Shown here piece after piece: positions 2,465-50,510 of a stretch of 64,000 bases of DNA. Position 1 is the stretch's first letter. Each line of letters starts with the position of its first letter. The stretch spans positions 1,302,001 through 1,366,000 of the forward strand of contig NC_081396.1 of the NCBI RefSeq assembly GCF_030684315.1. Reading direction: 5' to 3'. Source of the stretch: Stegostoma tigrinum (lineage: Eukaryota). The notes below the pieces were generated by a model. The model had not been told where the DNA came from and did not search any database. It saw only the letters and a list, made by a program, of their open reading frames with translations. A program made the translations under genes and the position numbers.

Positions 2465-2534
2465 ATGCATGCGCCAGCAAATGGACCTTTCTTTGCCATT
2501 TGCTATCCTATTCTCGCTGCTATTGGTGCACCTG
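2465..2534 (+). CDS. GPR139/GPR142-like class A GPCR gene A, coding exon 1 (MHAPANGPFFAICYPILAAIGAP + G, phase-1 donor gtaaaa at 2535)
   Basis: 70-nt exon encoding the N-terminus and first half of TM1; homologous exons at 18747 and 36924; splices in frame to 5773 to give GAP-A-NLL. Confidence 0.9.
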
Positions 2535-3711
2535 GTAAAACAACGAATCCGCTGAAGTGTTTGTGTTTGGCAAATTTCTAACATTTTGTATTTTCTCGTT
2601 CTTTATCAGGATATTTTTACGTGTTCAGTTCATTTTCATGTTCAGCACTGTCTGGGCATAAGGAATTCAATCAGAACAACAGTGTAAATGAGAGTGATAG
2701 ACAATAGAATAGCATGCTATGATAAATTATGGCCTGTTTCTTGGAATAGATTTATTAGTGACTACAATGAATTATTTCTTTTATCTTGTCACATATTTAT
2801 GGTTTAGATAGTTGAAATATATTCTTATTCGTAAAATGATTGATGCCAAGGATATAGAAAATAGACAAACAAAAGAAAAAAAAAACAGCTTCTCTAAAGC
2901 CGTAAAATTGATATGGTAAAGGTAGTGTTCATTCAGCGAGTTGGTGAGATTGAGTTTTAATACTTGACAGCATGACACCGGCACGTTCAGTCAATGGTTC
3001 AAAAGAGAACTGAATGTTCACTTCAAAATTAACAATATAAAGCATGACGTGCAGATGATATATAGTTGCATTTAGTGAGATGATCATTTAAAGAGGCAGT
3101 CTTGATGTTATTGTCCGAATGCCCTCATTAATTGCTGCAGCCAGTCAGCATACAAAAACAACTTATTATACTGTTCACCACTCGGATTTCATAAAGCACA
3201 CGAAATTGTATTCCAGTACATTCAGCATAATGTCGTATTATTGCAGTATAAAATGCAATTTCGTGCCGTAATGTCAGTGCAAGATAAAAATATTACACAA
3301 CACAATCCTGATTTTTTTTTTGTTTTTCTCTGTGTCACAATGCGATTTAAGGAAGGATTCATCTGTTTTAGTCTTCTTTGCTAATATAATATTGAACATT
3401 AAGTATGGAAATGCTTGAAAGTGGCAAGTTCAGATGTATGATTTATTTCGTAAATTCTTGTATCTTTTATCCTGTCCTGTTACGACATGCACTTTGAGTT
3501 GTTCTTTTGGAAATTAGTGTTTGGGATCATCAGCAGGTTGTCATGTGATCTGACAAGGTCAATATTCGTTGGTTGCAGCCAGCTTCTACTTGAGAAATTC
3601 GAATTGCTCTCTTTGCTCAGCCACTGCAAGTAATTTACTGGAGATGGTTCACAAAGCATTCTTTTTTAGATCAAGCCTAAATGACACATAATGAGTGAGC
3701 GAGTGATAGAG

Positions 3712-3715
3712 ATAG

Positions 3716-3797
<82 letters not shown>
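3712..3797 (+). repeat. (GA)n microsatellite in the gene A intron
   Basis: Direct sequence; the homologous position in copy B is the N gap 19998..20136. Confidence 0.98.
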
Positions 3798-3800
<3 letters not shown>

Positions 3801-4414
3801 TCAACAGCTTCACAATCAAAAAGATAGCAGTTCAACAACTTTATCTAGAGAAGAGACGACTTGCGTGGAAACGTTAGTGATAACTGGAGATAAAGGGAAA
3901 AAAATCAGCAGCAGAAATCAATTACAGCTTGTTACTTCATTAAAGAGCCAACATATGACATCACTGGAAAATTGATAGGTGTTTGTCAGATTTTTCTTCG
4001 TAGTGTTACCATTAGCTGACTGGCTAAAAAATAAAGGACACCTTACTATAACTGGAGAATATAGTTAAGACAATCACTTTTTATTTGTTGAAAGTGGACG
4101 GCAATAAAATGAACAGCGATGCTTCAGCTGGAGACATACTGTCGTTTCACCATTTGAAAGATGTTGGATACCAGGGTACCAAGCGTTATTTTTCGAACAG
4201 CGTTGGGGAGTTAGAGGCTGAGCTGCCGGCACTGCAACTCATCAGGGAGGGGAATGCTTCAAACACTGTGTCAGCAGTCAATCGTCCTCAGATACTGAAG
4301 CAAGTGCCTGTGAGTAGGAAGACATGAGGATACAGAATTTAGATTTGCAGGAGCATCACTAGTATCATTATACTGTAAGCTGAGAATTTTGTTCTCAGAA
4401 TGGACAATGTCACT

Positions 4415-4500
4415 TCACCTGATGAAGTGGCAGTGTACGAAAGCTTATGATGTCATGTAAAACTGTTGGACAATGACCTGGTGTCGAGTAAATTGTGATT
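4415..4500 (+). mobile_element. Degenerate PLE-derived tail with hammerhead-like core (also ~20740..20830)
   Basis: cacCTGATGAagtggcagtgtacGAAAgctta...ctgttggacaatgacctggtgtc; same family as 11760..11885. Confidence 0.6.
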
Positions 4501-5772
4501 TTGGCGAGTTGTTACTTTAAATTAGCCTAAACTGAACGTATGTATTTCTTGCAAAAGACGAGGGTTAACTTCCACTCCGCCTCAATAACCCATTCGTGGA
4601 AAAGTTTAGAGACGTTTAATTAAACATTTCAGACAAGCTCTTGCACACTGCTGGATTAGTTCGCATTAAGTCCATGCTTTATGTTCGACAGAAATAGGAA
4701 CACTATCATGCTGCCCTAACATAAAGCATTAAGGACAATTCATAATTTGGTATGAGAATAATTTTCTGACAAATGACTGAAATCTTTGGAGACCAGTCAG
4801 AAGATAACAAGAAGTAATAGGAGTGAAATGATTATGTTAAGGAAAATTGAACATTCATGCAATGTCGACTGTCTGAGAGTGATCATGCATTTTCATGTGT
4901 TGTCCAAACAATTGAACCTCGAAGATAAGAATGCTTATAATGCGACGCATAGCCACACAACAGAACATTTACTGAACAATGATACACAAAATCACGCACA
5001 GAACAAGTAGACCAGACAAAAGAACTGCATTCAAATGAACAGAATAAGTCATATTCGGCCTCTCAGCTGAAAAATTTTGAGCCAATGTGTGAAGCGTTGG
5101 ATCTGTTGGTGTTTCAGCTGTTTTAAGTGTCTCCTAATTGTGATGAACATAAAAAAAGATGAAAAATGTTCCGATGCGCAGTGTATTCCAATAACTAGTC
5201 AATTCCGATTTAAAAAGTCCTGACAACTTTTCTCCCCAATATATCCCAGATAAATCCACCAGGAGATACAAAAAAAAGTGCTCATTTGTTTGCTCCAGTA
5301 TGTACCAGTGGACAATGATACTTTACTTCAGTGTTCGGGAAAATGTGAAATTGAGAATTCCCGCGCTCATAAGTGAGCATGAGATGGTCAGAAGAAAAAA
5401 AAATTACCGATGATTCCCTGGAAAGTCAATGGGCTTCAATGGGCGGATATTTGAAGTATAAATGGAATGTTTTATGGTAATGGGTATGGATAACCATGGC
5501 TTCCATTATTTTAAATTTGATAACTAGCCACATTAATTATCTTTCTGAATAGAGAACTAGGTGTGTGGTGATGATTTATTGGATTGTGTCTTGTACTGGC
5601 AAGTGATCAACCGAATGTGAGTTTTGAGATAATTAACCATGGCACAGTTGGTGTCTCAAGGAGGAAAACGTATGGAAGAGGAAGATTACAGCTAAGGATT
5701 GTTTGAGGACGACTGCTAAAGCTGCATGGAAGAATTATATTGTTTTGTCACAGTTCTTTTCATTTAATGCAG

Positions 5773-6674
5773 CAAATTTGCTGGCGATTATAATCCTATC
5801 ACGAGGTCGGTGTGGACTGTCTTGTTGCATCACCTACTACCTGGTGGCCATAGCGGTGGCTGATTTCAATGTCGTCATCATTGGGTGCATCCTCAACAGG
5901 ATTGGCCGGATTTATTTTCGAGACAGTGTACTTTCCACCACCCTTGCATGTAGGCTCAGCACCATGCTGATTTTTACAATACGGGATAGCTCAGTCTGGT
6001 TGACAGTGGCCTTCACTTTCGACCGTTTTGTGGCCATCTGTCACCAGAGGCTGAACATTAGGTACTGCACTCATAGAACTGCATCAGTGGTCATCGGAAT
6101 CATATGTACCCTGAGCTGTATCAAGAACACCCCTTTTTACTTCATCTTTAGCCCATTGTACACACTGGATGGTGTGCCCTGGTTCTGCATTATCAAGTCA
6201 ATCTATTATATTTTACCAATTTGGAAGGCCTACGATTGGCTGGACCATATCTTAGTTCCCTTTCTCCCATTCCTCCTTATTCTGTTATTCAATTCCCTAA
6301 CTGTAAGTAGCATATTAGCAGCCAGCAGAGCTCGCAAAAGGATCAGGGGCGCTCAGAATCGAGGAGACCAGGAGACGTCCAATCGCAAGAAGTCCATTGT
6401 TCTGCTGTTCACCATCTCTCTAAGTTTTCTCCTCCTATGGGCCATCCAAGTTGTACATTTCCTTTACGTGCGTATTCCAGGAAAGGCTTACTTGTCTGGT
6501 TTGGATTTTAATGACCCTGATTACCTTCTTCAAGAGGCGACCGACATGCTCCAGATTATGAATTCCTGCAACAATGTCTTCCTCTACGCAGTGACTCAGA
6601 AAAGGTTTAGAGCGGAATTGAAGAGGCTGCTGATGTGCCCCATTGACACTGTCACCAGTCGCTATAAGGAATGA
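5773..6674 (+). CDS. GPR139/GPR142-like class A GPCR gene A, coding exon 2 (spliced protein 323 aa, intact)
   Basis: Acceptor tttaatgcag at 5772; open frame with 7TM motifs: ANLLAIIIL (N1.50), YLVAIAVAD, TM3 Cys, WLTVAFTFDRFVAIC, ECL2 WFC, PFLLILLFN, LLFTISLSFLLLW, NNVFLY, helix 8 KRFRAEL; stop TGA at 6672..6674. Confidence 0.93.
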
Positions 6675-6920
6675 AAACTGACCAAACCTCATCATGTTGT
6701 TTTTCTTCCATGAAGAAAGCTCGGTTTGGGAAGTTTCTCTGAAATCACTAGGAAGTTTTTAAATCATGTGTTCACTATTCATGCTGCCAGCCCCAGCATT
6801 GCCATGTTGCAAATACTAAACAGATTCTGAAAGAATTGAGTCACTGCATGACTAAATAAGATCCCCAGTGTCAATAATAAAACATTTGATTTTCACCATT
6901 TCAGAAGAAAACAAGATTTC

Positions 6921-6926
6921 AATAAA
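6921..6926 (+). terminator. Candidate polyadenylation signal AATAAA for gene A
   Basis: ~250 nt after the stop; conserved in copy B at 23239..23244; a second AATAAA at 6876..6881. Confidence 0.4.
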
Positions 6927-7607
6927 TGTTCTGAGTCATTACCCATTACTCATCCAACACCACTGAAGGTGAAAGATTTTCTGCTTACTTGTATGATTAA
7001 CTGTTGAGTTATTAATGTTCTTGGCATGTTATATGTCACGTTTACTGCTTCCAACAGAAATTGCTTTCATTGGATTCAATGACTTGCTGATACAACAACA
7101 CTTTAAAACAGAGAGTTAAAGTGTTCGTTGCTATGAGTTCTCCAATTGTAGTTATCCTTTAACAAGTATTATTGCTCAGCCTTTACCGAGGTGTGTTAAG
7201 ATCTTACACATTGTTGTGCATCTTGTAAGTCTTGTGCATGTCTTTTCTGAAGGTGCATTGGAAAATAACTTGGTGATTGCGCTGTCAACGTTTCAGGGAA
7301 TATATCCCAATTCAACGCTTTTTGACTCAAAATCAATTCTGCAGCTTCGATGTTGATGTGCAATCTCAAAAGCCTCAAATAGGCGGTATCATCACTGCAC
7401 CAAATTGTACCCTAATACACACTTACTTCACTGAAAATAATTCCAGTGTTTCGAACGGTTCCTCAGCACACTTTGATATGAATAGATTCCTGGAGGTGTT
7501 CTGGAATATTGTCCCCTGTTTCTATGTACCAGGTCATTCTGTTGAAGTTTTTTTTCTCAAGTTGTCCTGCTGTCGGTAGTCCAGCCGTAAACGTGTATTC
7601 CCATACT

Positions 7608-8000
7608 ATGGCTCTATGCATTTTCATTCTTCTGGGAACGTGAATCAAAACTGACATTTTCAACAACGAAACAAAAACGAAAATAAAAACAACATTAAAC
7701 ATATTCAGCGAAAGCAAGTGCCTCTCACTCTTGCAGTTAAGCAAGGTTATTTTAACTCCACGCACACTAACTTTGACAATAACAAGAGCGGTGTGGGCAC
7801 GGCGACACTTCCAGAGAAGTGAATATCGAGGCCTCACCCAAGAAATGAGCGAAGTGTAAGAACAAGAGTATCCAATATGAGGTTAAATCCATTGAACATG
7901 AGATTATGAATCTCAACGATGAAGGATGGAGTGAACCAATCTGACTAAAGCCACAAACCTGATCACAGACAGATAAATCTTTGAATGCAGTATGAGATAA
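7608..8000 (+). pseudogene. Weak V-segment relic with leader (copy B ~23925..24310)
   Basis: ATG-led hydrophobic leader MALCIFILLG, gt at 7640, ctcttgcag acceptor at 7736, VILT.., 3' LTKATNLITDR*IFECSMR resembling LTI..L...D.A.YYC. Manual, many gaps. Confidence 0.3.
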
Positions 8001-8493
8001 ATAATTCGAATCCCAAAAAGCCAGGGTACCAATACTTTTTGTTCAATCATGAACATTATTCACAGCTTCTGCTCCTAAAAGCTGGAAGTCCTGAAAAAAA
8101 CAACTTTGATATACATTTTCTTTTGTCTTTTTCCCCCCCGGATTTCATATTAGTCTGATAATAGTCTAATATTTAAAGCAGACGACCTTAAAAATACATA
8201 TCAATTATAATTACTAACCTGATGAAGAAAGAAATTATTCACTAATAGAGATACCATATTGGTTAATTTCATATTTGCAAATCTGCTTCTCATCCAATGA
8301 ACTAATTATGTTAGGAATAGATTGAGAACCTGCCTTTTATTCATCAGTGTCGTGTGGGCATTAGATAAGTTCTGCTCTGATGTGCATGCTAGATATAGAT
8401 ACTGTGATGCCTTGTAATCTGAAATGAATGTACAATGCTGCATGGAAACTCAATTGTTTTGAAAACATTAGAACATGTCTGAAGAAGATTAAT

Positions 8494-8836
8494 ATTGGAG
8501 TCACAACATTAGTTCTGTTCATCTCTCCACAGATAATGAAATAAATTATGAGTTTTTCGAGCACCCTTTGCTTTATTTTATATTTCAGGCATCCACAGGA
8601 TTGTTTTGAATAAATCAATATTCACATTGAATCTTACCGTCGCGTTTGGTACGTTCTTGAAAATGTGTGTCATTGACCTGCAGTATTGTCGCACAAAAGT
8701 CCGATTTCTGTTCACTTTATATTTAAGCAAAGCTTACTTTTCGACCAAAGCTATTTTAAAGAAAACAGTGAATCCCACAAATGTTCTGTTGACTTCATGT
8801 TCATGTCATATACACTCCCTTAATTGCGGATCAAGG
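8494..8836 (+). pseudogene. Decayed Ig/TCR V segment with leader (copy B 24802..25144)
   Basis: Leader MGATTLVLFISP (copy B), degenerate donor ataatg, tttcag acceptor at 8588 then (G)IHRIVLNKS...LKMC; copy B end tcatatacactaccttactgtcggatgaagg is SDTATYYC-x-MK with one substitution and two small deletions. Confidence 0.45.
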
Positions 8837-8865
8837 TGCCAAAGGATCGCAGACGTTTTCAGCAA

Positions 8866-9005
8866 GAGTCAATAAATGTGGAGCTAGAAAAAGAACGTCG
8901 GCCAGACAGCACCCGAGGAGAAGCAATTCAATATTCCGTGCAGAAACACTTCTTGGTTGCTGTCTGGCCTGCTGTATTTTCCCAGTTCCAGATTTATTGA
9001 CTTTG
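8866..9005. mobile_element. Fold-back PLE-terminus element, ~45-bp imperfect inverted arms (copy B ~25173..25315)
   Basis: agtcaataaatgtggagctagaaaa..ggccagacagca versus tgctgtctggcc..ttttcccagttccagatttattgact. Confidence 0.7.
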
Positions 9006-9442
9006 AATAAAACTCGCGGCGATGTAGGTTTTCAAATTTGTCACCTGAGTTTGACCATCACTCTGATATATGCTTTTCTTCTTGCTTTGTGAACTATCAC
9101 AATAGGTGGATCCTGGAGTCTCCAGCTACTGAATGTTGCCAAAACTGTTGTTTAAAACAGAAAAAAAAACTGACCGGCAGGGTTAATGAGAAATGTTGGA
9201 ACATGATGCATCTTGGCTACAAATCACGCCATAATGCATCGGAAAGTATGTCAGAATTCCCTGCTTTTGTTTCTGGAATCATTGTATCATTTTAATCTAT
9301 CAATATTGATGCACATCTTAGCGTTTAAATTGTGACGAAGGTGCGAAGGTAATGGTTTTACTCCACACAAATTTGAATACTGCCTAATGGTTTTATGCCC
9401 ACACCATACATTAAAAACGCAGTCACAGCACCATTTGCATGG

Positions 9443-9725
9443 NNNNNNNNNNNNNNNNNNNNNNNNNNNNNNNNNNNNNNNNNNNNNNNNNNNNNNNNNN
9501 NNNNNNNNNNNNNNNNNNNNNNNNNNNNNNNNNNNNNNNNNNNNNNNNNNNNNNNNNNNNNNNNNNNNNNNNNNNNNNNNNNNNNNNNNNNNNNNNNNNN
9601 NNNNNNNNNNNNNNNNNNNNNNNNNNNNNNNNNNNNNNNNNNNNNNNNNNNNNNNNNNNNNNNNNNNNNNNNNNNNNNNNNNNNNNNNNNNNNNNNNNNN
9701 NNNNNNNNNNNNNNNNNNNNNNNNN
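9443..9725. other. Assembly gap (N) next to a (CA)n tract
   Basis: Run of N followed by (CA)n at ~9735..9790. Confidence 0.99.
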
Positions 9726-9742
9726 GCATGCGTGCGCACACA

Positions 9743-9782
<40 letters not shown>

Positions 9783-9800
9783 CACACAGACAGACAAACA
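9726..9800 (+). repeat. (CA)n microsatellite
   Basis: Direct sequence. Confidence 0.95.
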
Positions 9801-10049
9801 CAAACCTTTTATTATCATTGCCTATTCATGACCCCACCAGACACTGATGGGAAATTATGCAAAATTTGACCCAGCTGAGCTACGTGATTCCTTGTCCATG
9901 TATAACCTGCTTTGGATTCATGGTGGTGAAGACAATCTCTCCATCGCAAACCATTGCTGTAAGTTGATGTAAGATGAAACTCCCTCCAAAAAGGGTGGAA
10001 ACATCTCTTTGGTTGTACTGTTGCATTGTAAGTTGAGGAATTGATGGAA

Positions 10050-11600
10050 AATGATATGTTGGATGTGGCGGTTGGGAGGGTGAGATGTAACGACTTTATT
10101 TTCGTTTTGGGGAGGGAATGTGAGGGCAGAAGTGGAGGAAACACAAGAGATAAGTTTGTGGACATTTTTGATATCCAGAGAAGGAAGTTACAGTCTGTGA
10201 AATGTGAGGATATCTGGGGCATGTGGGAGAGACCCATGTAGAAATTCAACACTACAGAGGGGGAAGAATTGGGAGTATGGCATATCGTTATTGCAGGAAG
10301 GTGGGTGATCCGGAGATCGAGCCTGGATAACAGTGGGATTAGGTGATTTTGAAACAGATGCCAGGTTCGAGGCAGACACTAGAGATGGAGACAGAGAGGT
10401 TCAAGAAGGAGATGGAGATATTGGAGTTGGTCTCGGTGATTGTGAGGATGGTGCAAAAGCTGTTAGTAAAGTTGAAGAACTGTGCGAGCTCCTCCTGGAA
10501 GCACGAGGCAACACCGATGCTGTCATCAACATAACATAGGAAGTGGTGATCGAAAATGCCAGTGTAGCAACGGAAGAGGGACTGCTACACTTATTCTACA
10601 AAATGACAGGCATAGTCTGGGCCCATGTACGTGCTCTCGTCCACTGCCATAGTCTGTCGAAAGTGGGAGGATTTAAAGGAGAAGTTGTTAAGTGTAAGGA
10701 TGAGGTTGTTGAAGTGGATGAGGGTGTTTGTGCTGGGGACAAGGGTAGAGGGAATGATTATGCATCGTCAACATGAGGTCTGCGGGAATCAGGAATTTGG
10801 AAGAGGTGGAGAGCACAGGTGGTGTTCGAGAAATGGATGGGTTTTCTTGGACCGGGCGAGAAATCCAGAATCTGCGGAAGCAGATACAAGTTTCATTGGA
10901 GCAGAAGGAGGCAGAGACAATGGGTCGGTTGGGGAAGTTAGGTTCACAGATTCTGGGAAGCAGATGGAAACGGGGGGCGTGGCGTTGTGGAATGGTCAGT
11001 GTGGAGTTTGTGTGCGTGAGGTCACCTCGTGTGATGAGGTTGTGATTGATTTGAGAGATGTTAGTTTGTTGGCCTGGCGTGAGGACATGATTGAGGTGCT
11101 TCTGGGAGCAGGTCTCAGTGAGTTGGCACTGGGAGCGCAAATTTAAATTTCACTGCACCATACTACAACTGTGCCTTCATTAACTGTGGGTTTGAATGTG
11201 AGTCGAGCGTTAGATTGAAGGGAACGGAGGGTGGCACGTTCCGATGGAGAGAGGTTGAAGTGAATGACCCAGGTGGAGAGGTTTATGTGATCGATTTTGT
11301 GACGACAGTTGGAAATGAGGAGGTCAAGGGAGGGTAGGAGGCCATGGGGTGGTGTGCTGGAGGAATTCCTACACCTCCATTGCATTTGTTCCTCACATGC
11401 GGCGTTCCACTCACGCACCTCCCAGATGCCCACTGGTTTGTATGTATATCCTTCTGGAGGAGTACCTTGCAGTGAAGGTAAGCATTATAACTTAGGATCA
11501 AACATGGATCAAGTTCTCGGTTATTCAGGCGAACTCCTGCATAAGTGGAAGGATTGTTGTGTGCCTTAAAATGGAGGTGTGGGTAGAGCAGTAACATTAA
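10050..11600 (-). mobile_element. Decayed, internally rearranged Penelope-like retroelement (RT and GIY-YIG fragments)
   Basis: Minus-strand HPPSCNNDMPYSQF matches HPPSCKNSIPYSQFL of the young PLE at 52.5 kb; LSPSERATLRSLQSNARLTFKP and IPQRHAPRFHLLPRI..PNRPIVS are PLE RT motifs; a small + strand piece (ICSSHAAFHSRTSQM, ~11380..11430) indicates an inversion. Confidence 0.85.
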
Positions 11601-11671
11601 GTGACTGGAAGGTAATGACATTTTCCAATTAGAAAACTGAAAGTATATTGTCTTTCACCATTTCGAGCATT

Positions 11672-11885
11672 AGTACTCAGAGTTCATACAAGACCAGATT
11701 AAAATCCAAGTGATTTTAGAAATCACAAGCTTTCTAGCGTTGCTGCTTCATCAGGAGCCTTCAACCGCTGAAGAAGCAGCCATTTGAAAGCATATGACTT
11801 CAAATGAACCAGTTGGATTGTAATCTGTTGTGTTGTGACTTCTGACTTTGCCGACACCAGCCAAACACTGGCACCTCCAAATCAT
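11672..11885. mobile_element. Head-to-head pair of PLE tails, each with a degenerate hammerhead core (copy B ~27755..27970)
   Basis: Minus CTGATGA at 11748..11754 and plus CTGAAGA at 11768..11774, each followed by GAAAGC and a shared downstream tail. Confidence 0.65.
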
Positions 11886-11969
11886 GTAAAATTAATTCTG
11901 AACGAATGCAGAACTCAATGTGCTTATGTTGGCTTGTACATTCCTTGTGTTGAATTTAACTTGATCACC

Positions 11970-12310
11970 GTTCCCTTTTCAATCCACGGGAAACGTTTTA
12001 TTGGATAATGAAGTTTTATCACAAGCCATTGTTCCAGAATATGGTGAAATACATTTACGATGGAATTTCTTCTCCCAGACAGCCGTGCATATCTGGAATT
12101 GTCCACACGACACTTATGGGGTTTCTTCACTGAAAACATTTAAATGGGAGGTAACTGCTTTCTTTGACATATTGGGAAGTTGACAGCTTGGGAGACATGT
12201 ACGAAAGGAGCCAAGTCTGGTGCAACTGTGCTGTGATCTTATTAATTTGAAGGTTCTGGCATGATAGTTTGAATGGTCTATGTTGCTTCGTATTAATTAT
12301 GTTTTCACTA
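11970..12310 (+). mobile_element. Old CR1-type LINE 3' end (copy B ~28050..28320)
   Basis: ttcttctcccagacagccgtgcatatctggaattgt (FFSQ.AV.IWN) and gaatggtct..tattaattatg tail are typical of CR1 ORF2 ends. Confidence 0.6.
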
Positions 12311-12456
12311 CATATCTAATGACTTAAAGCCAGGAAATCAGTAATTATGCAAAATATATGGAAATTTGATTTGCACCGTCTCTCAAACTTAGTGCTGGTT
12401 ATCTTCCCTTTTTCACAATTAATGAGTCGCACGTCTTGAAATCTTACAACTATCAG

Positions 12457-12792
12457 TCAATGTCGAAACACTAATATGAATGCAACCAGCTTCAAGAAAC
12501 ATGTAGTAACATGGAGACATAATCATAATGTGTCAGCTGAATTTAATGTTGTTGTGGTTGAAGACAGAAGGAAAAGAATGAAGGAAAGGAAGAAATTGTA
12601 TAAGAGATTGCGAATTTTATCAGCTCTGTGTAGCAGTGGAAAATGACCAGCAGTGGCTAGACACTGTTTTCTGATGGAGCTCAGGAGTACAAAACCATCT
12701 TAAGTCATGATCTCGTGTTCGAGGACGCCAGCATGTATCACTGTGTGATGAAGGCACATTGTGACAATGTGCAATCGGCCTGTACATTATTA
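12457..12792 (+). pseudogene. Decayed Ig/TCR V segment plus RSS relic
   Basis: Phase-1 acceptor ctatcag; LI*MQPAS..GDIIIMC..W; LFS..TILSHDLVFEDASMYHCVMK; Cys-Cys distance 211 nt; exon 298 nt; heptamer-like CACATTG at 12755, 22-nt spacer ending ctgt, ACATTATTA. Confidence 0.55.
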
Positions 12793-13203
12793 TGTTTACT
12801 GTTGTATCTCTGCTGTCATGTGAGACATTTCCCACTGCAGGAGCTTTTGTTATATTAACTATTTTCAGAGAAAACGAAACTACTAATAAGTATTTAAACA
12901 TGTATCCTGCTGAGCTTCATAATGTTATAACCACTACTCGAGATGAACGGCATAGAAACACATGAAATGTGTTTTTCTTTGTTCAGTTCAGCAGCAGACG
13001 ACTTGGGTAACACAGAAGAAAAGTAAGTCTGAGAAAGGAAATCTGGAATTAAGATGCCCCCTCCAGTAGTTCAGCAGAATGAGCCGTATATCTGGCAACT
13101 GCAGTGCTTAAATTCAGAACTTCCCAATTCTGTTTCCTGACAAAGAGATCACTGCACACAGAATAATTCTAATTTAAGAAACACCGAGAAGATTTTATTC
13201 ACT

Positions 13204-13806
13204 TTACCGTTCAAAGAAACCATTTAAAACGGAGAAGGTATGCATTATCATCTTCTTCAGCTGCTCTCTGAACTTTGACTGAGAAACAGCGTATATGAAG
13301 ATCTTGCTACAAGTGCCAAGTAAATGGAGAACTTTCATGGTCAATTGTAGACCTGCCAGGCTGTCATGGAACAGTAAATGGCCTTGATATCACAGAGTGA
13401 GGGGACCTCATTCGCAAAGTATAAAGGCTGCTGTATGAAGTCTTAAGAAATGTTCTTTATGAGGATCATTGCACAGATGAGTCCCATGATTAGCAACACA
13501 GTTAACACAGTGCTGCATCTAGCCTTTAGGATCTCGGAGAAGATGGCCCCAAAACGGTCAATAGTAAAAGCCAATGTCAACCAAAGTGACGCATCCCGTG
13601 TAACAGAGAGGAGCACATCAATAACGCTGCATGCTTGCGTAACAGACAGAATACTGTGCCTGAAGTCGATTCTGGGGATCCGGTTGAGTAAACAAGTCCT
13701 GGTGATAACCAGTCAGTCAGCCACCTCTACGGCTACCAAGCAGAAAACGATACCCATGAGACTTCACACTGCCTTTGGGACAGAATTATAACTGGTATGA
13801 GGGTGG
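13204..13806 (-). pseudogene. GPR139-like pseudogene D (exon 2 only, ~300-nt internal deletion of TM5-TM6)
   Basis: Acceptor ttcttgcag; TLIPVIILSQRQC, VAVEVAD*, LLNRIPRIDFRHSILSVTQAC, TRDASLWLTLAFTIDRFGAIF, LIKNI, then jumps from AWQVYN* to KIFIYAVSQSKFREQLKKMI..FFER*; stops and frameshifts. Confidence 0.9.
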
Positions 13807-14878
13807 CTGCAAGAAATAAAGAGAGATGTTACCCAACGAGCTGTAACACACGAGCTACAGCTTTTTTCAAATCTTTGACTGAAACTCTCTTCCTCCACCA
13901 GGAGTCACAAACGCTCATTCATACCAGTTTCCATACAACCATCACCTTTGTGCTTGGTGAATAACTTCTCAAGCTCCAACACTTTTTCGATGCTAATACG
14001 TCTGGCCTGCAAATCTGAAAATACCTCCTGTTTCTCAGAATTCATGAACAAACAATACCATCAGAAATCGTAAAGTGCCTCAAATTCTGTCCTTTTGTGA
14101 ATGCATGTTATTGATGCTGGATTACCTTATTAATTATCAGTACTCAAACAGATTCATCACTCAATTCCACGCAGTGCTTTTTATCTTTCAGCGATCTGAT
14201 AAGCTGATGACCCATAACTAGGATAGATAATGCATTACTCACAGTCTGGCAATACTTCATCATTCAGGTTTGAATATATGCAGTACAATTTTTCACGTTG
14301 TCATATCGTATGACATAAATCATAGAAATGTCGGAATATGCTGAAGTGACTAATGTTCAGACGGAGCTGAATAGCTCATGAAGTAAAATCTTGCAGAGTG
14401 TTTTTTGCTCTCCAAATATATACAAAATATTTTTTTGAAAATCTCATAGAACAATTATCTACACAACATACCAATTGTAGCGAGAATTATGTAGCTAATA
14501 GCACAGAAAGAACCATTTGCTGGAACGTGCATCATCTGTTGGAAATAAATAGAGTTCTCCACTTTGGCCAGTTTGTTTCTGGGTCACTTTCGAAAGGAGT
14601 TGCATGAGCATCTCCCGAGAGGAAAATTGTACAGAATTCTTTTACTTGCATTCAGTAAACAAAATACCTCACGAAACAGAGGATTTAATTTTTTTATGAG
14701 TGAAGAACTGGCCTTATCTTCAGGTGCCACATTCTCGTTCGCTTTCGACAATCAGTTGAGGTCCTACCTCAAAAAAGAAATCTTTTTTTCCCATCTCTGA
14801 AGTGCTTGAAATTATTTCATGTCTTTTAGATTCCATTTTACTTGTGTCATTGTTCTTGGTGGCATAACCATAATCCCA

Positions 14879-15800: not shown

Positions 15801-18746
15801 AATACTTTGATGTACTCTGAATTCGAATGGTTTTTGCACGATTTTTGTCTTCTTACTTTCAGTAATATTTGTCAGTTTATGGGAGAAAACAGTATATGTT
15901 TTTGAACTGATTCCAAGTCGAACTTTGTAGCCCAAATGTAGAGAGATTTGCTACGTTTCTTACTGTGATGGCCGAGTCTGTTTCATTAAAAGATACAGAG
16001 GATATGAGGGGCTGCACGATATTGGTATTGTGGCGATGATTCCCAATCTGTTAAATCTAAAACACTCCGTTTACACTGAGATAGATGTTTTTTTCATTTC
16101 AGAAAGTAGTACACTGAGTTTTCTTTTGTAAATCACTGAGAATTTGAGGAAGTCTACATGCAAGACTATTGTCAGTGATGGATGCTTAAATTTACTTCAC
16201 ATAAATATGTTCAAATTTTCAATAATAAAGGAATGAAGCACATGAATACAATGCACGAAGCTTAAGTTGAGACTGTCCAAACTTTTTTTGTAATGAACAA
16301 TGGAGCAGGATCGAAAGATGGACCTGTTTACTCCCGCTGCTAGTTATAATGTTATCGATTTTGATTTGTTTCACAGTCATGAGCGGCAACATTAACAATA
16401 ATCCAGTTCTGTCTGGAACTCTTTAACTGTTTGAATGCAATCTCGAGAGGACTGCAGACATGTGAATGTGTTGAAAACACAAACATGATGAAGAGAAATG
16501 TGCTGCAGGTTCCATCATGCTGATTATGCAATTCAATGTGTGAGGATAAGCTTCAACATTAGATTCCTGTGTATTTTCCCCATTCCTTGATTCCTTAAGA
16601 TTTTGGATTTTAACACTTATTTGTCTTGTTTGTTTTCCATGGAATCTTCAAATTTATAAGACTCACAACTCTTTGATTTTTAATCTATCTCTAACAAAAT
16701 AAATCTGGTTCTCAAAATTTCAGCTAACTTTTTTAACTGACTGAATCCTTTGGAACTCATCATGGAATCATTGGAAACATTAAGGGTTTCTTTGGAATTC
16801 TTTTCTCAGAAACTTAATTGTCTTTTAGAAATTGCAATGAAATGATGGCCTTTGTTAGTGGTAATCCAGAGTGGATAATTGCTGTTTTCTTTTTTTATTA
16901 TACTAGGATTATCAGTGCTGAGATTTTCATGGACCTTGATGTTAATTGCACTGCTCCCAGTCTCCTTTGTTTGGAAGTTTTTTTTTACATGTCAACACTT
17001 CACTTGGTTCAGATTGTTACTTTGCATGCATTACCTTGATTATCTCCTCAAGTTCTCCCTGATTTGTTATTCTTACATATCATCCTTAATTTTGTTCATG
17101 CGTTGTGATCCTTGCTTTTGCAAAATGGTCTTTCCATTCTAATCAATCAGATCCTAATTCTGTTTCTCTTTATCCGTTAAATTAAATGAATATCTGCCCA
17201 AATGGTTGCTGCACAGGATCCCAGCGCTGCATGTACAACAATTGAACAACTCTTATGGCACTAACTCCTGGCTTTGTTTGTACGATGCAAGATATATTAG
17301 CAGTAAGTCACTCAATGAGGTATTTTTACATTTCACTGGGTGCTGTGACAGTTCAATGAGCCATTTATATATTTCACTGGGTGCTGTGACAGTTTGTATG
17401 AAAGTAGACCGGGCAACTGGTTATAAGAGATAACAACGTGAGGAGCTGAATGACCTAAGATGCTGCTTGGTCTGCTGTGTTCATCCAACTCTACGCTTTG
17501 TTATCTTGGATTCTCCAGCATCTGCAGTTCCCATTATCTCGGGCAATTGGGTATGGTGCTCATACCTTTTATACAGCGCATATAGCATTAGATCATGTGC
17601 TTCCCAGTAGTACAGCTAGCCTCTGGTTCAGTTCATTTTAACCCCCAGCATTATTATTTATATTGATTTTGGGACTTGCTCAGTTATGGAAATGCTGTAT
17701 CTCGTTAGGATGATCCTGCTTCTACACTGTTCTGAATGGGGATCATTGAGTATATTATGTGACCGTGCCATTTTTCTATTCTACAGTAGACCCTGTCCCA
17801 ATAATCACTGTACCAGGTCACTATTTTACAGATTAATCACATTAAATTCTGCGCTGATTCAAGAGTTCCATATGATTGTCCCTATGCTGTGCTAAACCTT
17901 GTCTTAATTGTTGAAGGTGGAGAACCAGTTCTCTTATAAATGATATTCTGCACGTCTCCAACTTATCAGTTCTTGCAGTAGATCATTTGCCTCTCCACGT
18001 TGCAATTTCAGTTTCACGTTAGCCAGGATCCTTGATGCTAATTTTCCAAGCCAGGTTTCAGCTGATATTACACAAGATGATCTCCTTTTTTTTGTTTCTT
18101 TTGTCAAAAGCTATTGTACCAAGAACTCAGAAGCTGGGCATGAGAATTTGAGATTTTTACTCCTTTTTCTGCAGCAGAACAAATTAGTCACTGTCCACGT
18201 GGTTCACGTTTTCCACGTGCTGGGAGTTCACACATGATTTTCCCTCCCATCTATGAAAACGTATTTTCAAATATTTCAGATCGAAACCGTTTGAATAGTT
18301 AACATTACACCTTTGAACACGAAATCACTGAGACATGATTCCAAAAATGGACTGATCTGAGACCTTAAAGCAAGACATTTTATTTTAAAGATGACAACGA
18401 TGGGAACGATAGATTAAAAGTGAGGACGAGACTTCAACTCGGAATCTCCCACAAACTGGTCCAGTGATGTAACCGTAAATTTATGGTTTCTGTCATAAGG
18501 TTATGGGGGGAAAGGTTGTGTAAAAACGCAGAATTTGCATCCCTCTGTTGTCCCATGAATACAATCACGCAGCAAATGTTTTATTCAACAATAAGTTGGA
18601 CTGGTTCTTCACTGAGATGTAAGCTAAGTGTTGTAAAATTAATGGCTTCTCTGGAGACTCTTGTTTGGTATGAATGTGGGATGATTTTAATGTGTCACAA
18701 AGCAACTGTCTACAGCTTTGAAAACATCTATATCTTCTTAGGAACG

Positions 18747-18816
18747 TTGCATGCACCAGCAAATGGACCTGTCTTTGCCATTTGCTATTCTATTCTCGCT
18801 GCTATTGGTGCACCTG
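18747..18816 (+). pseudogene. GPCR pseudogene B, exon 1 (start ATG changed to TTG)
   Basis: TTG-HAPANGPVFAICYSILAAIGAP+G with donor gtaaaa at 18817; homologous to 2465..2534. Confidence 0.88.
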
Positions 18817-19997
18817 GTAAAACAACGGATCCTCTGAAGTGTTTGTGTTTGGCAAATTTCTCACATTTTGTATTTTCTCGTTCTTTATCAGGAATTATTT
18901 TCCTCTTGTTCTGCACTGTCTGGGCATAAGGAAATTCAATCAGAATAACAGTGTAAATGAGCGTGATAGACAATACAATACCATGCCATGATCAATTATG
19001 GACTGTTGCTTTGAATGGATTTATTACGGAATACAAGGACTATCTTCTTTTATCATGTTACATATTTATGGATTGATCGCTTATTAAACCGTTGAAGTCT
19101 ATTCTTATTCGTAAAATGATTGATGCCAAGGCAACAGAAAATAGACAAAAAAAGAAAAAAAAAAACCTCTCCAAAGCCCTAAAATTGATATGGTAAAGGT
19201 AGTGTTCATTCAGCGAGTTTTTGAGATTGAATTGTAATACATGACAGCATGATACTGGCACGTTCAGTCAATGGTTCAAAAGAGAACTGAACGCTCACTT
19301 CAAAATTAACAATATAAAGCCTGACGTGGAGATGATATTTAGTTGCATTTAGTGAGATGATCATTTGAAGAGGCAGCCTTGATGTAATTGTCCGAATGCC
19401 CTCCTTAATTGCTGCAGCAGGCATGCAATATAATGTACATCAGTGTACAAAATCAATTTATTATACTGTTCACCACTCGGATTTCTTAAAGCACAGGAAA
19501 TAGTACTCCAGTACATTCAGCAGAATGGCGTATTGTTGCAGTATAAAATGCATTTTCGTGCCGTAATGTCAGTGGAAGATAAAAATATTATAAAACATCA
19601 TCCTGATATTTGTATTGTTTTTCTCTGAGTCACAATGCGATTTAAAGACGGATGCATCTGTTTTACTCTTGTTTGCTAATATAATATTTAACATTAAGTA
19701 TGGAAATGCTTGAAATCGGCAAGTTCAGATGTAAGATTTTTATCGTAAATTCTTGTATCTTTTATGCTGTGCTGTTACGAAATGCACTTTGAGTTGTTCT
19801 TTGGAAATTCGTGTTTGGGATCATCAGCAGGTTGTCATGTGATCTGACAAGGTCAATATTTGTTGGTTGTACCCAGCTTCTACTTGAGAAATTCGAATTG
19901 CTCTCTTTGCTCAGCCACTGCAAGTAATTTACTGGAGAGGTTTCACAAAGCATTCTTTTTTAGATCAAGCCTAAATGACACAATGGTATTGGAGAAG

Positions 19998-20136
19998 NNN
20001 NNNNNNNNNNNNNNNNNNNNNNNNNNNNNNNNNNNNNNNNNNNNNNNNNNNNNNNNNNNNNNNNNNNNNNNNNNNNNNNNNNNNNNNNNNNNNNNNNNNN
20101 NNNNNNNNNNNNNNNNNNNNNNNNNNNNNNNNNNNN
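19998..20136. other. Assembly gap (N), probably a (GA)n tract
   Basis: Run of N at the position homologous to 3712..3797. Confidence 0.95.
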
Positions 20137-36854: not shown

Positions 36855-36924
36855 CAGGGGCACCGATAGCAGCGAGAATGGGATAGCAAATGGCAGCTAC
36901 AGGTCCGTTCGCTGGTGCATGCAT
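36855..36924 (-). CDS. GPCR gene C, coding exon 1 (MHAPANGPVAAICYPILAAIGAP + G, donor gtagga)
   Basis: 70-nt exon homologous to 2465..2534; phase-1 GT at 36854..36853. Confidence 0.9.
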
Positions 36925-45990: not shown

Positions 45991-48619
45991 GGAGGTCTTG
46001 AACAGGAATCCGTGTGCAAGTTGCTAAGTTCATCACATCAATAAATATTGATTCACACAATGGAGTTTACAATGATATCGTCCATCAGTGCAACCATCTT
46101 TGCCTTTGTTAGAATGCTGCATTGATGAATAAGCTAGCTATATCACATAAGCACATGGACACTGCATTATGACTGATTGACATTTTTGTATGATCTTCAG
46201 AACTAAGACAACATTATTCACTACATTTAAATGAAACTAACTCAAAACCACAATATGTTCAATCATTGCTTTTCAGAGATAAGATGATGTGCAAATGAAT
46301 GTCATGTGCCTTTGGCGGCTTATGCATATTTTATATGATCCCAATGAGCCTTTTCTTTCAACTGTGTTACATTTTGGGAAAATAGCAAGTTCTGTCCATG
46401 TGGGTGTTATTTCTTACACAAGTGAAGAAAGTTTTTATTTATTAAAATTTACTTTTGAATCACGTGCAATGACTCAGTTTTAGTGATGAACATTGAACAC
46501 ATCCACGAACAACTCCACCATTCTGTGTACATTTTATGCCTCAACCACAAAAAGTAACCTTTATAACTGTGCTCAGCATGGAAGTACCAAGATTCATCAG
46601 CTGAGGTAATGTGGTAATAAATAAGGGTTTCCCTTTTTTTGCCAATGATTAAACTGAGAATGTAAGAATTCTTCGTGTTTCATGTACTTCCAAATGACTT
46701 CAAATTTCACCACTCGCCACCTGTGCGAGTTCTATGGAATTAGCTACAATGCACAGTTCTGTTGGTGTTTTGCCATCTCAAGGATAAATCTCACAATCTT
46801 TTGCACATTTTTGCATCACAATAAGGAGCACGTTTCAAGATCGACAGGACAGATTATGTTTTGCCAATGTTCAATGACTAGAATGATGCAAAATGGTCTC
46901 ATGTGCTTTCGTAAAAGAACTCCGTAAGAGTTTGCTGCAGCTGAGTGAGCAGCTAGGAAGTTTCAGAAATTTAGGGGCAATCACATTACGGTGAGGCTGG
47001 GAGAATTGTACAGCTGACCATGTAAGTGCAAACATTGAAGAAATCAGATGGCTTTTTACCAGTACCTGTATCCATAATTTCTTTGTCAGCATTGCTGAAA
47101 GTTCAGATAATTGATTTTAATTCATTTCACCCGATCTGATAACCTGTTAAATAATATCTCTGGGATCTTAGCCCGCAACACTATATCACTGAAGCTCTAA
47201 CACGACGATGATGTAAATGTTCCTTCGGCATGGATATTGTTGGAGTTAATTACTCAAAATGAATCAAACATGGGATTCTTCCACTTTGTACATGAATTTC
47301 AAGCTACTTCGTGAATGGTTAAAAGAAACAAATCAATTTTCTACAAGGACCTTTGTCAGCATCATTTCACAAATTCTGGGCATGCTCATACAAATCAACA
47401 TAAAGTACCTCCATGTGACAAGAACGAATTACTTGAATTTGGAATGAATTTGGACTGCCTCGATTTGTTTGATGAAGCATAATTAATGTTAATGCAACAT
47501 AATTCTGCCGCCAGAATTAACTGCAGTTAGAAATACGAGATTGCTTGAAATTGTCCAAGATGGCATGCTTGTTTCATTGTTCCACCTATTATTTTCAGAA
47601 ATGCATGCTCCACTAACTGGCCTTGTATTTGCCATTTACTATCCAATCTTTTCGCTGTTCCAGTTATGACATGATCGATTGCTATGCAAGACAAAGGCTA
47701 AACTTATTACATTGATGATTTATGGAAAGCACCACAGATTTATATTTATTGCAAAGTGTTCTTAACTTATAGTTGTTCATTGCTGAACTTTTTTCTGAGT
47801 TTCTTCCTTAGGGACTGCATTTTTGCATTTTTGTGGAGCCTTTGTTTAAAGGAGCAATGTTCTGTATAAGATGTTACGGTATCATATTTGTTGTATGAAT
47901 GTTTAATTCATTTATTGATGTTCTTGTGCCAGATTTTCGCAATATTTTCAATCATAGACTATTCATTTCTGGCAGATTTTGCATTTGCTGCTCAAATTCC
48001 GATTCCCGAGACAAGGAACCTGGCTATGGTCTCCAGTTTTGGGAGCCAAGGTCCGTGTGTGGCAACCCAATGATTTAGACGGTGGAGACAGTGTGTTGGG
48101 TGTCGGTTTCAGGTCAGCCTGGCGGCAGATAATGTGTGCCAGCGGTTCAAAAATTCCGAGCAATAAGATAGAAACAATTCATCAACAAGTACTAAAAGTG
48201 TCTGAATTACGATCTTGTGCTGACTCCTTTTGCTGGGGAGGGTTTGCTGGATTCTTTCTAAAAATGGTATGGATTTGCACATTAGCACAGAAATAGCTCC
48301 AGTATGCTCTCCGAGACAGTGGAATGAGATTTGTTGCATAGTGACCGATGTACTCAAGAGGAGGAGATTGGTATCAGTGACCATTGGGCTGGTTGATATC
48401 AGGTATGAGGCAATTTATGTTACTGAATCTCGGCGAGTTTAGATCAGGTAAAACGAGAGTTGTGTAGTGACTGTTGGCGAGATTATATTGGACAGGAGAA
48501 GACTGATGTCAGTGACTTTGTGATAGGTTCATATCAGACAGGACAAACAGGTTGAATTTCAAGAGACACAGCCAAAACTGTGGACGCTGCAGTCAGAAAG
48601 AGCCAGTGTGAAGCAGGCG

Positions 48620-48958
48620 AGGTCGTGGCCGAGTGATATTAGCGCTGGACTGTTCATCCAAGACTGAGATAATGTCCTTCAGCCCCAGGTTCGAATCCCC
48701 CCATGGCAATGCCATAATCTGGAACCGAGAATCTAATGATGGTTATGAATCCATTGTCGATTGCTTGAAAAAATCATCTGGTTCACTAATATCCTTTAGG
48801 AAAGGAAATCTGACATCCTTACATGGTCCGGCCTACATATGACTCCAGACCCACAGCAATTTGATTGACTCTTAACTTCGCACTGGGCAGTTAGGAATGT
48901 AAAATAAATGCTGCTGGTTGCAGACGCCCTCAACCTCTGATTGACAATTAAAAAAAAA
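48620..48958 (+). mobile_element. tRNA-derived SINE with poly(A) end, inserted in a PLE tail
   Basis: A box TGGCCGAGTGA, B box GGTTCGAATCC, body ggttcactaatatcctttaggaaaggaaatctg..gactccagacccacagcaat; related decayed copy at 51880..52163/53798..53880. Confidence 0.8.
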
Positions 48959-48959
48959 C

Positions 48960-49590
48960 ATGAAAAGGAGCAGCGCATCAGAGGAACAGGACAGTTAATG
49001 TTTCCCTGCGGAACCCTGGTCTTCAGAAATGGTGGGGTTGGGGTGGGGTGAACGGACCGGGGGAAAAAGTACAGAGAGGATGGTTGGGGTTGGAGAAGGT
49101 ATGTGAGTGCAGGTAGGGAGTTGTGGGGTTAGGTCGGTGGGATGTTTGGGGTGGATAGTTGGGAGTGAAGATGTAGAGATAGTGTAAATCGCACCCATGC
49201 TTCTGAAGAACTATATTATTGAAGAAAAAGTGGCATAAATGCTGAAAGTTTGGAGCAGAGAGATAAAGGGTGAGGGGATAGACAGAGGTAGCAACCAGTT
49301 TAGAAAAAAAAATGATAGGAGGTGAAACATGACAGTAAACCAGGGTAAAAAGAACACTCATAATGTGAACCATATGTAAGTGAAAAATTGTTGGTTGTGC
49401 CTGAAGGAGACCATGTCATTACGGAACCTTGGTGTAGTGGTGACAAAAGAGTGGACAATATGGAGTTGCATTTCTGAAATAATTGAAATCGATATTGAAT
49501 TCTGAAGGTTGCAGACTTCTCAGGCCGAAAATGGAACGCAGATTTCCAGCCTGATCTGAATCTTGTTGCACCACTACAGCAGGCACGAGA
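48960..49590 (-). mobile_element. Decayed PLE 3' end (GIY-YIG C-terminus, purine/pyrimidine-biased pLTR, hammerhead-like core at ~48995..49026)
   Basis: Minus-strand IFGLRSLQPSEFNIDFNYF (cf. RLGTLQPNGIKVDF at 53.3 kb); CTGAAGA..GAAACATTA. Confidence 0.65.
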
Positions 49591-49602
49591 TACAAACTGT
49601 TT

Positions 49603-49735
49603 CAGAGATAGTAGGAACTGCAAATGCTGGAGAATCTGAGATAATAAGGTGTAGAGGTATATGAACACAGCAGGCCATGCAGCTTCGGAGGAGCAGGACA
49701 GCTGAAGCTTCGGGCCCAGACCCTTCTTCAGAAAT
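49603..49735 (-). mobile_element. PLE terminal fragment with hammerhead core
   Basis: Reverse complement of the 53670..53797 tail: CTGAAGAagggtctgggcccGAAGCTTC..gattctccagcatttgcagttcctactatctct. Confidence 0.8.
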
Positions 49736-49739
49736 TTCT

Positions 49740-50510
49740 TTAAGAGATTTTGTTCATTGTTAAACTTACGTCTGACTTTTCCGAGTCACTGCTTAAATGG
49801 ATCGGTTCGTGTAACAGCTCAGGAGCTGAATCTTTAACATTAACTTGGAGAACGAATCTTGGATCATTAAAAGTGGAAACTGAGAAGTAAGTTTAGTTTG
49901 TAAATTGAAAAGAGGAATATTTAAAACCTATTTCATACATAACAAGATGAGGCTTCCAGGTATGGGAAAGAGTAAAGCAATGGAATTTATCTGGTTCTGC
50001 ATCTCTGGGTCGCTCTGATTCTCTCCACTGCTGCTTCTGGTCCAACTTCTGCGATGGGCCTTACTAGTAACTGCCAAATGCCTGATAGTAATATTACTGA
50101 GCAGTTAAATCAGGGTAAAAGGTGGATCGGATCTAAAACACATGCAAACCATTCAGAGGCTGTCCATACAAGGGAGGTGTATAAACTTGACATCGCATTA
50201 CAAAACTACAGGATCTTGTTACTTAGGTATAGTGACTCGTTTATCAAGTACAGGACAATATTCTTTGAACTGTTCAACAAACCAACCGACCCGATGACCA
50301 CGGCTGCTCTTTTCTCTGGACAGTGTTTTGTTTTCAGCTTCTGGCAACAAATAGCTATAAATTGATCAAACGTGAAAGCAACAGTTAATCTGACAAAACT
50401 CTCCATGGCTTCATACGTTGTCAAGGAAATGAATATACACTGGAGTAACTGGACATAAAGCTAACAGGAAAACCAACGCCGGTAAATTGCATTAACTGGA
50501 TCAGTTATTC
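49740..50510 (-). pseudogene. Old GPR139-like pseudogene E (different subfamily)
   Basis: FPVSFM..TPV; RLTVAFTFDQFIAICCQKLKTKHCPEKRAAVVIG; LYTSLVWTASEW; NITIRHLAVTSKAHRR..GENQSDPEMQNQINSIALLF..GSLILL; IQLLSCYTNRSI*AVT; many stops and frameshifts. Confidence 0.88.

What the first reader, a model, noticed from the sequence alone, without database searches (positions are those of the whole stretch)
2465..50510. Birth-and-death cluster of compact GPR139/142-like receptors that may be an uncharacterised chemosensory family
Seen: six loci in 50 kb (2 intact, 1 young pseudogene, 3 old remnants from at least two other subfamilies). The proteins have an ~8-residue N-terminus with no N-x-S/T sequon, a phase-1 intron in TM1 (GAP|ANL), DRF, a TM3/ECL2 Cys pair, no proline after the TM6 Trp, and NVFLY/NVIIY in place of NPxxY. 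Established from recall: mammalian GPR139/GPR142 respond to aromatic amino acids, share the GLPAN..LAAAD..DRY..NFFLY pattern and are single-copy; sharks have few classical OR genes. Inference: tandem amplification with frequent pseudogenisation is the pattern of chemosensory families, so these may be amino-acid or peptide sensors in olfactory or gustatory tissue. Given the V-array context, immune expression is an alternative.
Basis: partly seen in the sequence, partly recalled or inferred. Interest (0 to 1): 0.75.

Follow-up and report, generated by a model that had tools for sequence, protein, structure and literature searches.

The report
Large orphan receptor family in sharks
This stretch of shark DNA holds working and broken copies of a receptor gene family that has multiplied widely in sharks, rays and chimaeras; it may be an overlooked set of chemical sensors, but its tissue and ligands are unknown.

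Summary
The cluster is real: two intact 323-aa class A GPCR genes (dN/dS 0.29), one young pseudogene, three remnants and two further fragments. One ~16-kb duplication made two of the six loci. All motif claims check out.

The genes are not GPR139/GPR142 orthologues. Gene A scores 49 bits to human GPR139, 126 to a conserved salamander gene and 108 to a single-copy 'GPR210-like' gene. None of 164 aligned relatives carries all four GPR139 Trp/Phe-pocket residues. They belong to a large chondrichthyan expansion, auto-named 'probable GPR139': 115 of the top 120 hits are elasmobranch and about 99 clusters at 50% identity have E≤1e-30. Pocket positions differ strongly between subfamilies and are conserved within the local one. 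No paper describing the expansion turned up in my searches. The scan noted this family before in a ray genome.

Best reading: a ligand-diversified sensor family, most likely chemosensory (~45%); immune sensing ~22%. No expression data were available, and the 'V-array' context was not confirmed.

The parts
2465..2534 (+). Gene A exon 1 (70 nt, Met to mid-TM1, phase-1 GT donor)
5773..6674 (+). Gene A exon 2 (TM1-TM7, helix 8, stop); intact 323-aa receptor; AATAAA about 200 and 245 nt downstream
14467..14532 (-). Remnant D exon 1
13198..13807 (-). Remnant D exon 2: stops, frameshift, internal deletion from ECL2 to TM7; P0018-type subfamily
18747..18816 (+). Pseudogene B exon 1, start codon lost
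22092..22991 (+). Pseudogene B exon 2 with two 1-nt deletions; dS to A 0.084
29237..29439 (-). Remnant E (TM6-TM7), duplicate copy of the D gene
31463..31642 (-). Weak extra fragment (ECL2-TM5), best E 1.3e-4, 5 HSPs from the 120 query proteins
32422..33323 (-). Gene C exon 2; intact 323-aa receptor
36855..36924 (-). Gene C exon 1
47601..47654 (+). Orphan exon-1 remnant with no exon 2 found downstream
49778..50496 (-). Remnant F (TM2-TM7, stops and frameshifts); P0091-type subfamily
1..13321 (+). First copy of a tandem segmental duplication
16286..29327 (+). Second copy, about 89-90% identical including non-coding DNA

Best explanation
These are members of an old orphan class A GPCR lineage in the wider GPR139/142/'GPR210' group, kept as a conserved gene in salamanders but amplified into a large tandem-cluster repertoire across cartilaginous fishes (shown; about 85% sure of the placement). 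New copies arise by segmental duplication and many decay (shown here). Survivors stay under purifying selection on the fold and the G-protein face (shown). Subfamilies carry different binding pockets, and the local subfamily has a conserved polar, charged pocket (R3.36, D3.37, D5.42, Y6.51, E7.36, N7.39) under a predicted ECL2 beta-hairpin (shown in sequence and model). Inferred: they work as a combinatorial set of sensors for external water-soluble charged molecules (amino-acid derivatives, amines or short peptides) in chemosensory cells of nose, mouth, skin or gut, probably not Trp/Phe in the GPR139 manner. The confidence given is for the chemosensory function.
For: Size and spread: 1134 clusters at 90% identity with E<=0.001 among 4179 candidates (only the top 120 listed, so not all are shown to be family); 115 of those 120 carry elasmobranch names from 19 species, 5 are unnamed, and most of the last 40 rows are still 54-59% identical (counted by eye). 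99 clusters at 50% identity reach E<=1e-30; 18 of 19 family-like representatives looked up are chondrichthyan, including Callorhinchus, and 1 is unnamed. Clustering elsewhere: 10 of 11 whale-shark hits lie on one 11.7-Mb record. Selection: dN/dS A-C 0.29; A-B 0.57. Pockets: 24 pocket positions average 2.78 bits against 2.00 for 41 other outer-TM positions and 1.12 for the inner half across 63 divergent members (p=5e-5). The single-copy GPR210-like gene averages 0.54 bits at the same positions. A and C differ at 3.33, 5.42, 6.51 and 7.39, four of the five GPR139 contact positions, against 86 of 323 overall (noticed after the fact). Compact build: 73 of 86 close relatives have N1.50 at residue 25, and 1 of 86 has an N-terminal sequon. 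Context: cartilaginous fishes have only 20-62 known olfactory receptor genes but many sensory neurons (PMC10869828, passages). GPR139/142 share an origin with protostome MIP/FMRFa receptors (PMC8514136, passages), a group expanded to about 450 genes in a snail (PMC11589774, passages).
Against: No tissue or ligand evidence at all. Within the local subfamily (101 proteins, 63% mean identity) the pocket is not more variable than other outer positions (1.00 vs 1.21 bits), so diversification is between subfamilies only. Lipid-facing positions have a lower entropy ceiling, which inflates the pocket contrast. Tandem birth-and-death with varied pockets also describes immune GPCR families (FPR, MRGPR; recalled). 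The catshark top-50 list for brain plus olfactory epithelium held no GPCR (PMC11979771, passage), although that list also lacked the known olfactory receptors. GPR139/142 themselves could not be put in the tree.
Confidence: 0.45

Rival explanations
1. Innate-immune or tissue-damage sensors on leukocytes, mast-like cells or nociceptors, filling the niche of FPR/MRGPR-type families: same structure, but microbial or damage-derived peptides as ligands.
For: Peptide-receptor-like fold with an ECL2 hairpin; top fold matches are ghrelin, galanin and chemokine receptors (generic class A matches, TM 0.66-0.76). Sharks lack MAS1 and relatives (10.1101/685743, passage). Birth-and-death fits. Two V-like decayed motifs lie in the window.
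Against: The V-like motifs gave no Pfam V-set or PDB match, and no intact V gene or clean RSS was seen. The family lies on many records of different lengths. No sequence kinship to FPR, MRGPR or chemokine receptors beyond class A (GPR139 86 bits, next 66).
Confidence: 0.22
2. Receptors for endogenous neuropeptides or metabolites (brain, gut, gonad, osmoregulatory tissue), diversified together with a shark-specific ligand set.
For: The nearest characterised relatives are endogenous-ligand receptors (PMC5430874 abstract and passages). The local subfamily and the GPR210-like clade both have conserved pockets.
Against: Frequent pseudogenisation (4 of the 6 main loci here) and about 100 deep clusters are unusual for endocrine receptors (recalled).
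Confidence: 0.15
3. Mostly passive amplification: a few functional genes carried along in duplication-prone, repeat-rich chromosome regions, with most copies redundant.
For: One 16-kb duplication made B and E, both now dead. dS between A and C is uneven (0.37 for codons 1-200, 0.96 for 201-323), which suggests gene conversion or recombination.
Against: dN/dS 0.29 between A and C; near-invariant motifs across sharks, rays and a chimaera; distinct pockets per subfamily.
Confidence: 0.12
4. True GPR139 or GPR142 co-orthologues acting as Trp/Phe sensors, as the database names imply.
For: GPR139 is the best PDB match for A and for the family profile; NCBI names most members 'probable GPR139'.
Against: GPR139 scores 101 bits to an amphioxus gene, 70 to the coelacanth GPR210-like gene, 53 to the salamander gene and 49 to A. 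0 of 101 and 0 of 63 members carry F3.33+H5.42+W6.48+N7.39 together; R6.51 occurs in 0 of 101 and 2 of 63.
Confidence: 0.06

Closest known systems
GPR139 / GPR142 (Trp/Phe-activated class A orphans)
   Same: Nearest human relative; GxPAN in TM1, SxWxTV in TM3, W6.48, N-x-x-x-Y without P7.50. An intron at the same TM1 position is recalled, not tested.
   Different: Only 49 bits to A; longer ECL2 and ICL3; P6.50 and R6.51 lost; H5.42 mostly D; LSRGxCGLS signature in ICL1; many copies rather than one.
Single-copy 'GPR210-like' orphan (coelacanth P0229 and orthologues in sharks, bichir, sturgeon, teleosts, frogs)
   Same: Sister or near-sister clade; short N-terminus; shares the ICL1 and ICL2 cysteines and the RKSIVLL stretch.
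   Different: Conserved, few copies (26 hits), near-invariant pocket with E2.61, R3.28, R6.51, D7.36; lacks W6.48. Equating it with GPR210 of PMC6504862 (passage) is my inference from taxon spread; the Ensembl ids could not be matched.
Salamander gene P0217 (Pleurodeles, Ambystoma, Lissotriton)
   Same: Closest non-chondrichthyan relative (126 bits); forms one clade with the expansion in both trees (SH-aLRT 99).
   Different: One 90% cluster of 5 sequences; long branch; keeps P6.50 and has S at 1.50 and N at 2.50. Sister versus nested placement is unresolved.
Vertebrate chemoreceptor families (OR, TAAR, V1R/ORA, V2R, T1R, T2R)
   Same: Tandem clusters, pseudogenes, compact coding region, short N-terminus, variable pockets. 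TAARs are a precedent for a family recruited from brain receptors (search listing).
   Different: Different ancestry; Pfam 7tm_4 score 18.8, below the cut-off of 27; expression unknown.
Invertebrate expansions of FMRFamide/MIP-type receptors (snail FMRFaR-like; nematode srw, recalled)
   Same: Same broad receptor group amplified independently; some shark members carry Srw or Srx Pfam hits.
   Different: Separate clades in the tree; convergence, not orthology.

Membership tests
Class A (rhodopsin) GPCR | 7tm_1 above cut-off, seven helices, N1.50/D2.50/R3.50/C3.25-ECL2 Cys/P5.50/Y7.53 | tested here: met
   72.6 and 75 bits vs cut-off 30.5; AF2 pLDDT 86.6, pTM 0.84; residues
GPR139/GPR142 proper | Nearest human relative is GPR139 | tested here: met
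GPR139/GPR142 proper | Closer to GPR139 than to other vertebrate genes | tested here: not met
   49 bits to GPR139 vs 126 (salamander) and 108 (GPR210-like); GPR139 scores higher to amphioxus (101) and GPR210-like (70)
GPR139/GPR142 proper | Nested with GPR139/142 orthologues in a tree | not testable with these tools
   no search returned a GPR139 or GPR142 sequence as a usable protein
GPR139/GPR142 proper | Trp/Phe pocket F3.33, H5.42, W6.48, N7.39 with R6.51 | tested here: not met
   all four in 0 of 101 and 0 of 63; R6.51 in 0 of 101 and 2 of 63 (positions from PMC5430874)
GPR139/GPR142 proper | P6.50 present | tested here: not met
   7 of 101 and 7 of 63; absent in A and C
GPR139/GPR142 proper | Activation by L-Trp/L-Phe | not testable with these tools
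   needs an assay
Odorant receptors (OR) | 7tm_4 above cut-off | tested here: not met
   18.8 and 11.5 bits vs 27
Chemoreceptor family (functional class) | Large tandem repertoire with birth and death | tested here: met
Chemoreceptor family (functional class) | Diversified ligand pocket on a conserved scaffold | tested here: inconclusive
   yes between subfamilies (p=5e-5), no within the local subfamily
Chemoreceptor family (functional class) | Sparse expression in sensory cells; response to external ligands | not testable with these tools
   no usable expression data
TCR/Ig V-gene array (context) | V-set domain exons with RSS | tested here: inconclusive
   one V-like motif plus its duplicate; no Pfam or PDB match for those segments; whole-window profile scan not completed

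The most novel reading that the evidence does not exclude
An undescribed seventh family of vertebrate chemoreceptor GPCRs, recruited from the GPR139/MIP-receptor lineage, expressed sparsely in shark olfactory or other chemosensory cells, and as large as or larger than the known 20-62-gene repertoire. It would overturn the view that cartilaginous fishes smell with very few receptors and would repeat, in a vertebrate, the recruitment of this receptor group seen in invertebrates.
Probability: 0.3. Interest if true: 0.9.

Novelty: new variant of a known kind. Interest (0 to 1): 0.66.

Why it matters
Published surveys describe cartilaginous fishes as poor in GPCRs and olfactory receptors (10.1101/685743, PMC10869828, PMC6368271). 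A family with about 100 deep clusters sits in public annotations under the misleading name 'probable GPR139'. It makes an open question, how sharks detect diverse chemicals with so few known receptors, testable with existing catshark and bamboo-shark tissue RNA-seq. If the family proves immune instead, it would be a shark-specific innate sensor repertoire.

Tried and rejected
No whole genome is held, so there is no genome-wide count. RNA search with gene C exon 2: no RNA holder listed; this says nothing about expression. Four contig runs (at most 2 samples, 1 study, possibly the source) laid on 20200-25700 listed no indel against B; the pieces over the two deletions were not displayed, so I do not count this as proof, and depth was not used as copy number. 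Two searches meant to recover true GPR139/142 sequences failed: amphioxus query, 10 hits; coelacanth region query, 26 hits, all 58-100% identical to the query. The careful tree did not finish; both trees are quick IQ-TREE runs with SH-aLRT only, on 86 and 47 hand-picked rows out of 330-340 stored proteins. The alignment kept 101 of 120 near hits (290-345 aa) and 63 of 77 representatives (290-600 aa). Foldseek gave generic class A matches, with GPR139 at rank 7, so it is not discriminating. The ESM Atlas returned family clusters only. V-like motifs: no Pfam or PDB support; no further copies in the window. Literature: ten searches found no description of the expansion. Subscription papers are missing, including Yun et al. 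2015, which may bear on the 'Orphan 139-like' and 'NMOGPR' rows seen in the table of PMC5207463. The catshark expression supplement could not be read and may hold tissue data. Linkage to bamboo-shark immune chromosome 44 could not be checked.
Full report
Observation. The window is cartilaginous-fish DNA; the nearest named relatives are carpet sharks (Chiloscyllium, 78% identity). tblastn with the two long ORFs and with 120 homologues finds the six loci reported. Genes A (+, 2465-2534 and 5773-6674) and C (-, 36924-36855 and 33323-32422) splice at canonical GT-AG sites into 972-nt frames for 323-aa proteins with no N-x-S/T. B has lost its start codon and carries two 1-nt deletions. D, E and F are decayed; D and F group with two other subfamilies. 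Three corrections follow. Bases 1-13321 recur at 16286-29327 at about 90% identity, so A/B and D/E are one duplication (dS A-B 0.084). Two more fragments exist. The V-array context was not confirmed: one V-like motif and its duplicate, with no profile support.

What the genes are. Both proteins are class A GPCRs (Pfam 7tm_1; confident seven-helix model with an ECL2 beta-hairpin). The homologue search gave 1134 clusters at 90% identity among 4179 candidates. Of the 120 shown, 115 carry names from 19 shark and ray species and 5 are unnamed; most are auto-named 'probable GPR139', some 'FMRFamide', 'galanin', 'GPR15' or 'sex peptide receptor-like' (counted by eye). How many of the other 1014 are family members I cannot say. 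The unindexed search found 99 clusters at 50% identity with E<=1e-30. Of 19 family-like representatives looked up, 18 are chondrichthyan, including the chimaera Callorhinchus, and one is unnamed. The expansion therefore most likely began before the split of chimaeras and elasmobranchs. It lies on many records, often several genes to a record (10 of 11 whale-shark hits on one 11.7-Mb record).

Relation to GPR139/142. Human GPR139 is the best solved-structure match, for A (49 bits) and for the family profile (86 bits, next 66). Closer relatives exist: a conserved salamander gene (126 bits) and a coelacanth gene (108 bits) whose orthologues occur in sharks, bichir, sturgeon, teleosts and frogs. 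In two quick trees the expansion plus the salamander gene form one clade (SH-aLRT 99). That clade sits with the coelacanth-type clade and amphioxus genes (98), apart from the other invertebrate orphans. GPR139 scores 101 bits to the amphioxus gene, 70 to the coelacanth gene, 53 to the salamander gene and 49 to A. So the family belongs to the wider chordate group but is not GPR139 or GPR142. This rests on scores and motifs, because no GPR139/142 sequence could be put in the tree. Rinne et al. (PMC6504862; I saw passages and one supplement row) name a three-subtype orphan GPR210 beside GPR139/142 in coelacanth, gar and fishes, with no mention of sharks. Matching it to the coelacanth-type clade is my inference.

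Pocket. GPR139 binds Trp/Phe through F3.33, H5.42, W6.48, N7.39 and R6.51 (PMC5430874, abstract and passages). No family member examined has the first four together (0 of 101, 0 of 63), and R6.51 is nearly absent (0 of 101, 2 of 63). The coelacanth-type clade keeps R6.51 and has a near-invariant pocket. Across 63 divergent members, 24 pocket positions (chosen by generic numbering from established class A knowledge) are more variable than 41 other outer-TM positions (2.78 vs 2.00 bits, p=5e-5), while the inner half is conserved (1.12). Within the local subfamily the pocket is conserved (1.00 vs 1.21) and polar: R3.36, D3.37, D5.42, Y6.51, E7.36, N7.39. Part of the contrast may come from the lower entropy ceiling of lipid-facing sites. 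A and C evolve under purifying selection (dN/dS 0.29) yet differ at 3.33, 5.42, 6.51 and 7.39. Uneven dS along the gene suggests exchange between paralogues.

How it most likely works. Shown: duplication, decay, purifying selection, subfamily-specific pockets on a conserved G-protein face. Inferred: a repertoire of sensors for varied charged, water-soluble ligands. I put chemosensation at 0.45, immune or damage sensing at 0.22, endogenous-ligand receptors at 0.15, mostly passive amplification at 0.12 and true GPR139-type Trp/Phe sensing at 0.06. Nothing here shows tissue or ligand.

Known or new. Ten literature searches found no account of this expansion; the library lacks most subscription papers, and Yun et al. 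2015 and the catshark supplement could not be read. Papers I saw describe the opposite: 20-62 olfactory receptor genes in cartilaginous fishes (PMC10869828, passages), a V2R-dominated repertoire (PMC6368271, abstract), a paucity of GPCRs (10.1101/685743, passages), and no 'gpr' string in the catshark sensory paper's main text (PMC11979771, passages). This report adds the salamander and GPR210-like relatives and the pocket test.

Verdict. Interest 0.66, new variant of a known kind.

Noticed in passing
window 12400-12760 and 28400-28790 (+): Decayed segment ending in a D-A-S-M-Y-H-C-V-like motif with a heptamer-like word behind it, present in both copies of the duplication; resembles the end of a TCR/Ig V exon but had no Pfam or PDB match.
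   Followed up: partly
gene A/C exon 2: dS between A and C is 0.37 over codons 1-200 and 0.96 over 201-323, and A's TM6-TM7 best matches a different homologue (P0010) than its front half; possible recombination shuffling the pocket-bearing half.
   Followed up: partly
gene A residues 37 and 122: Near-invariant intracellular cysteines in ICL1 (LSRGxCGLS) and ICL2 (YCT), shared with the GPR210-like clade; role unknown.
   Followed up: no
protein P0217 (salamanders): Closest non-shark relative has S at 1.50 and N at 2.50, unusual for class A, yet is highly conserved across three salamander genera.
   Followed up: partly
proteins P0229, P0308-P0332: A conserved vertebrate orphan, also auto-named GPR139, with a near-invariant charged pocket; a good target for deorphanisation.
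   Followed up: partly
window 52162-53766, 43400-44060, 63022-63987, 9800-11650 and 25900-27770: Retroelement-like fragments: a segment with 283-bp inverted ends at 97% identity, and LINE-like reading frames; family names are recalled, not tested.
   Followed up: no
window about 25268-25310: About 40 bases with very high contig depth in all four runs, probably a high-copy repeat piece.
   Followed up: no
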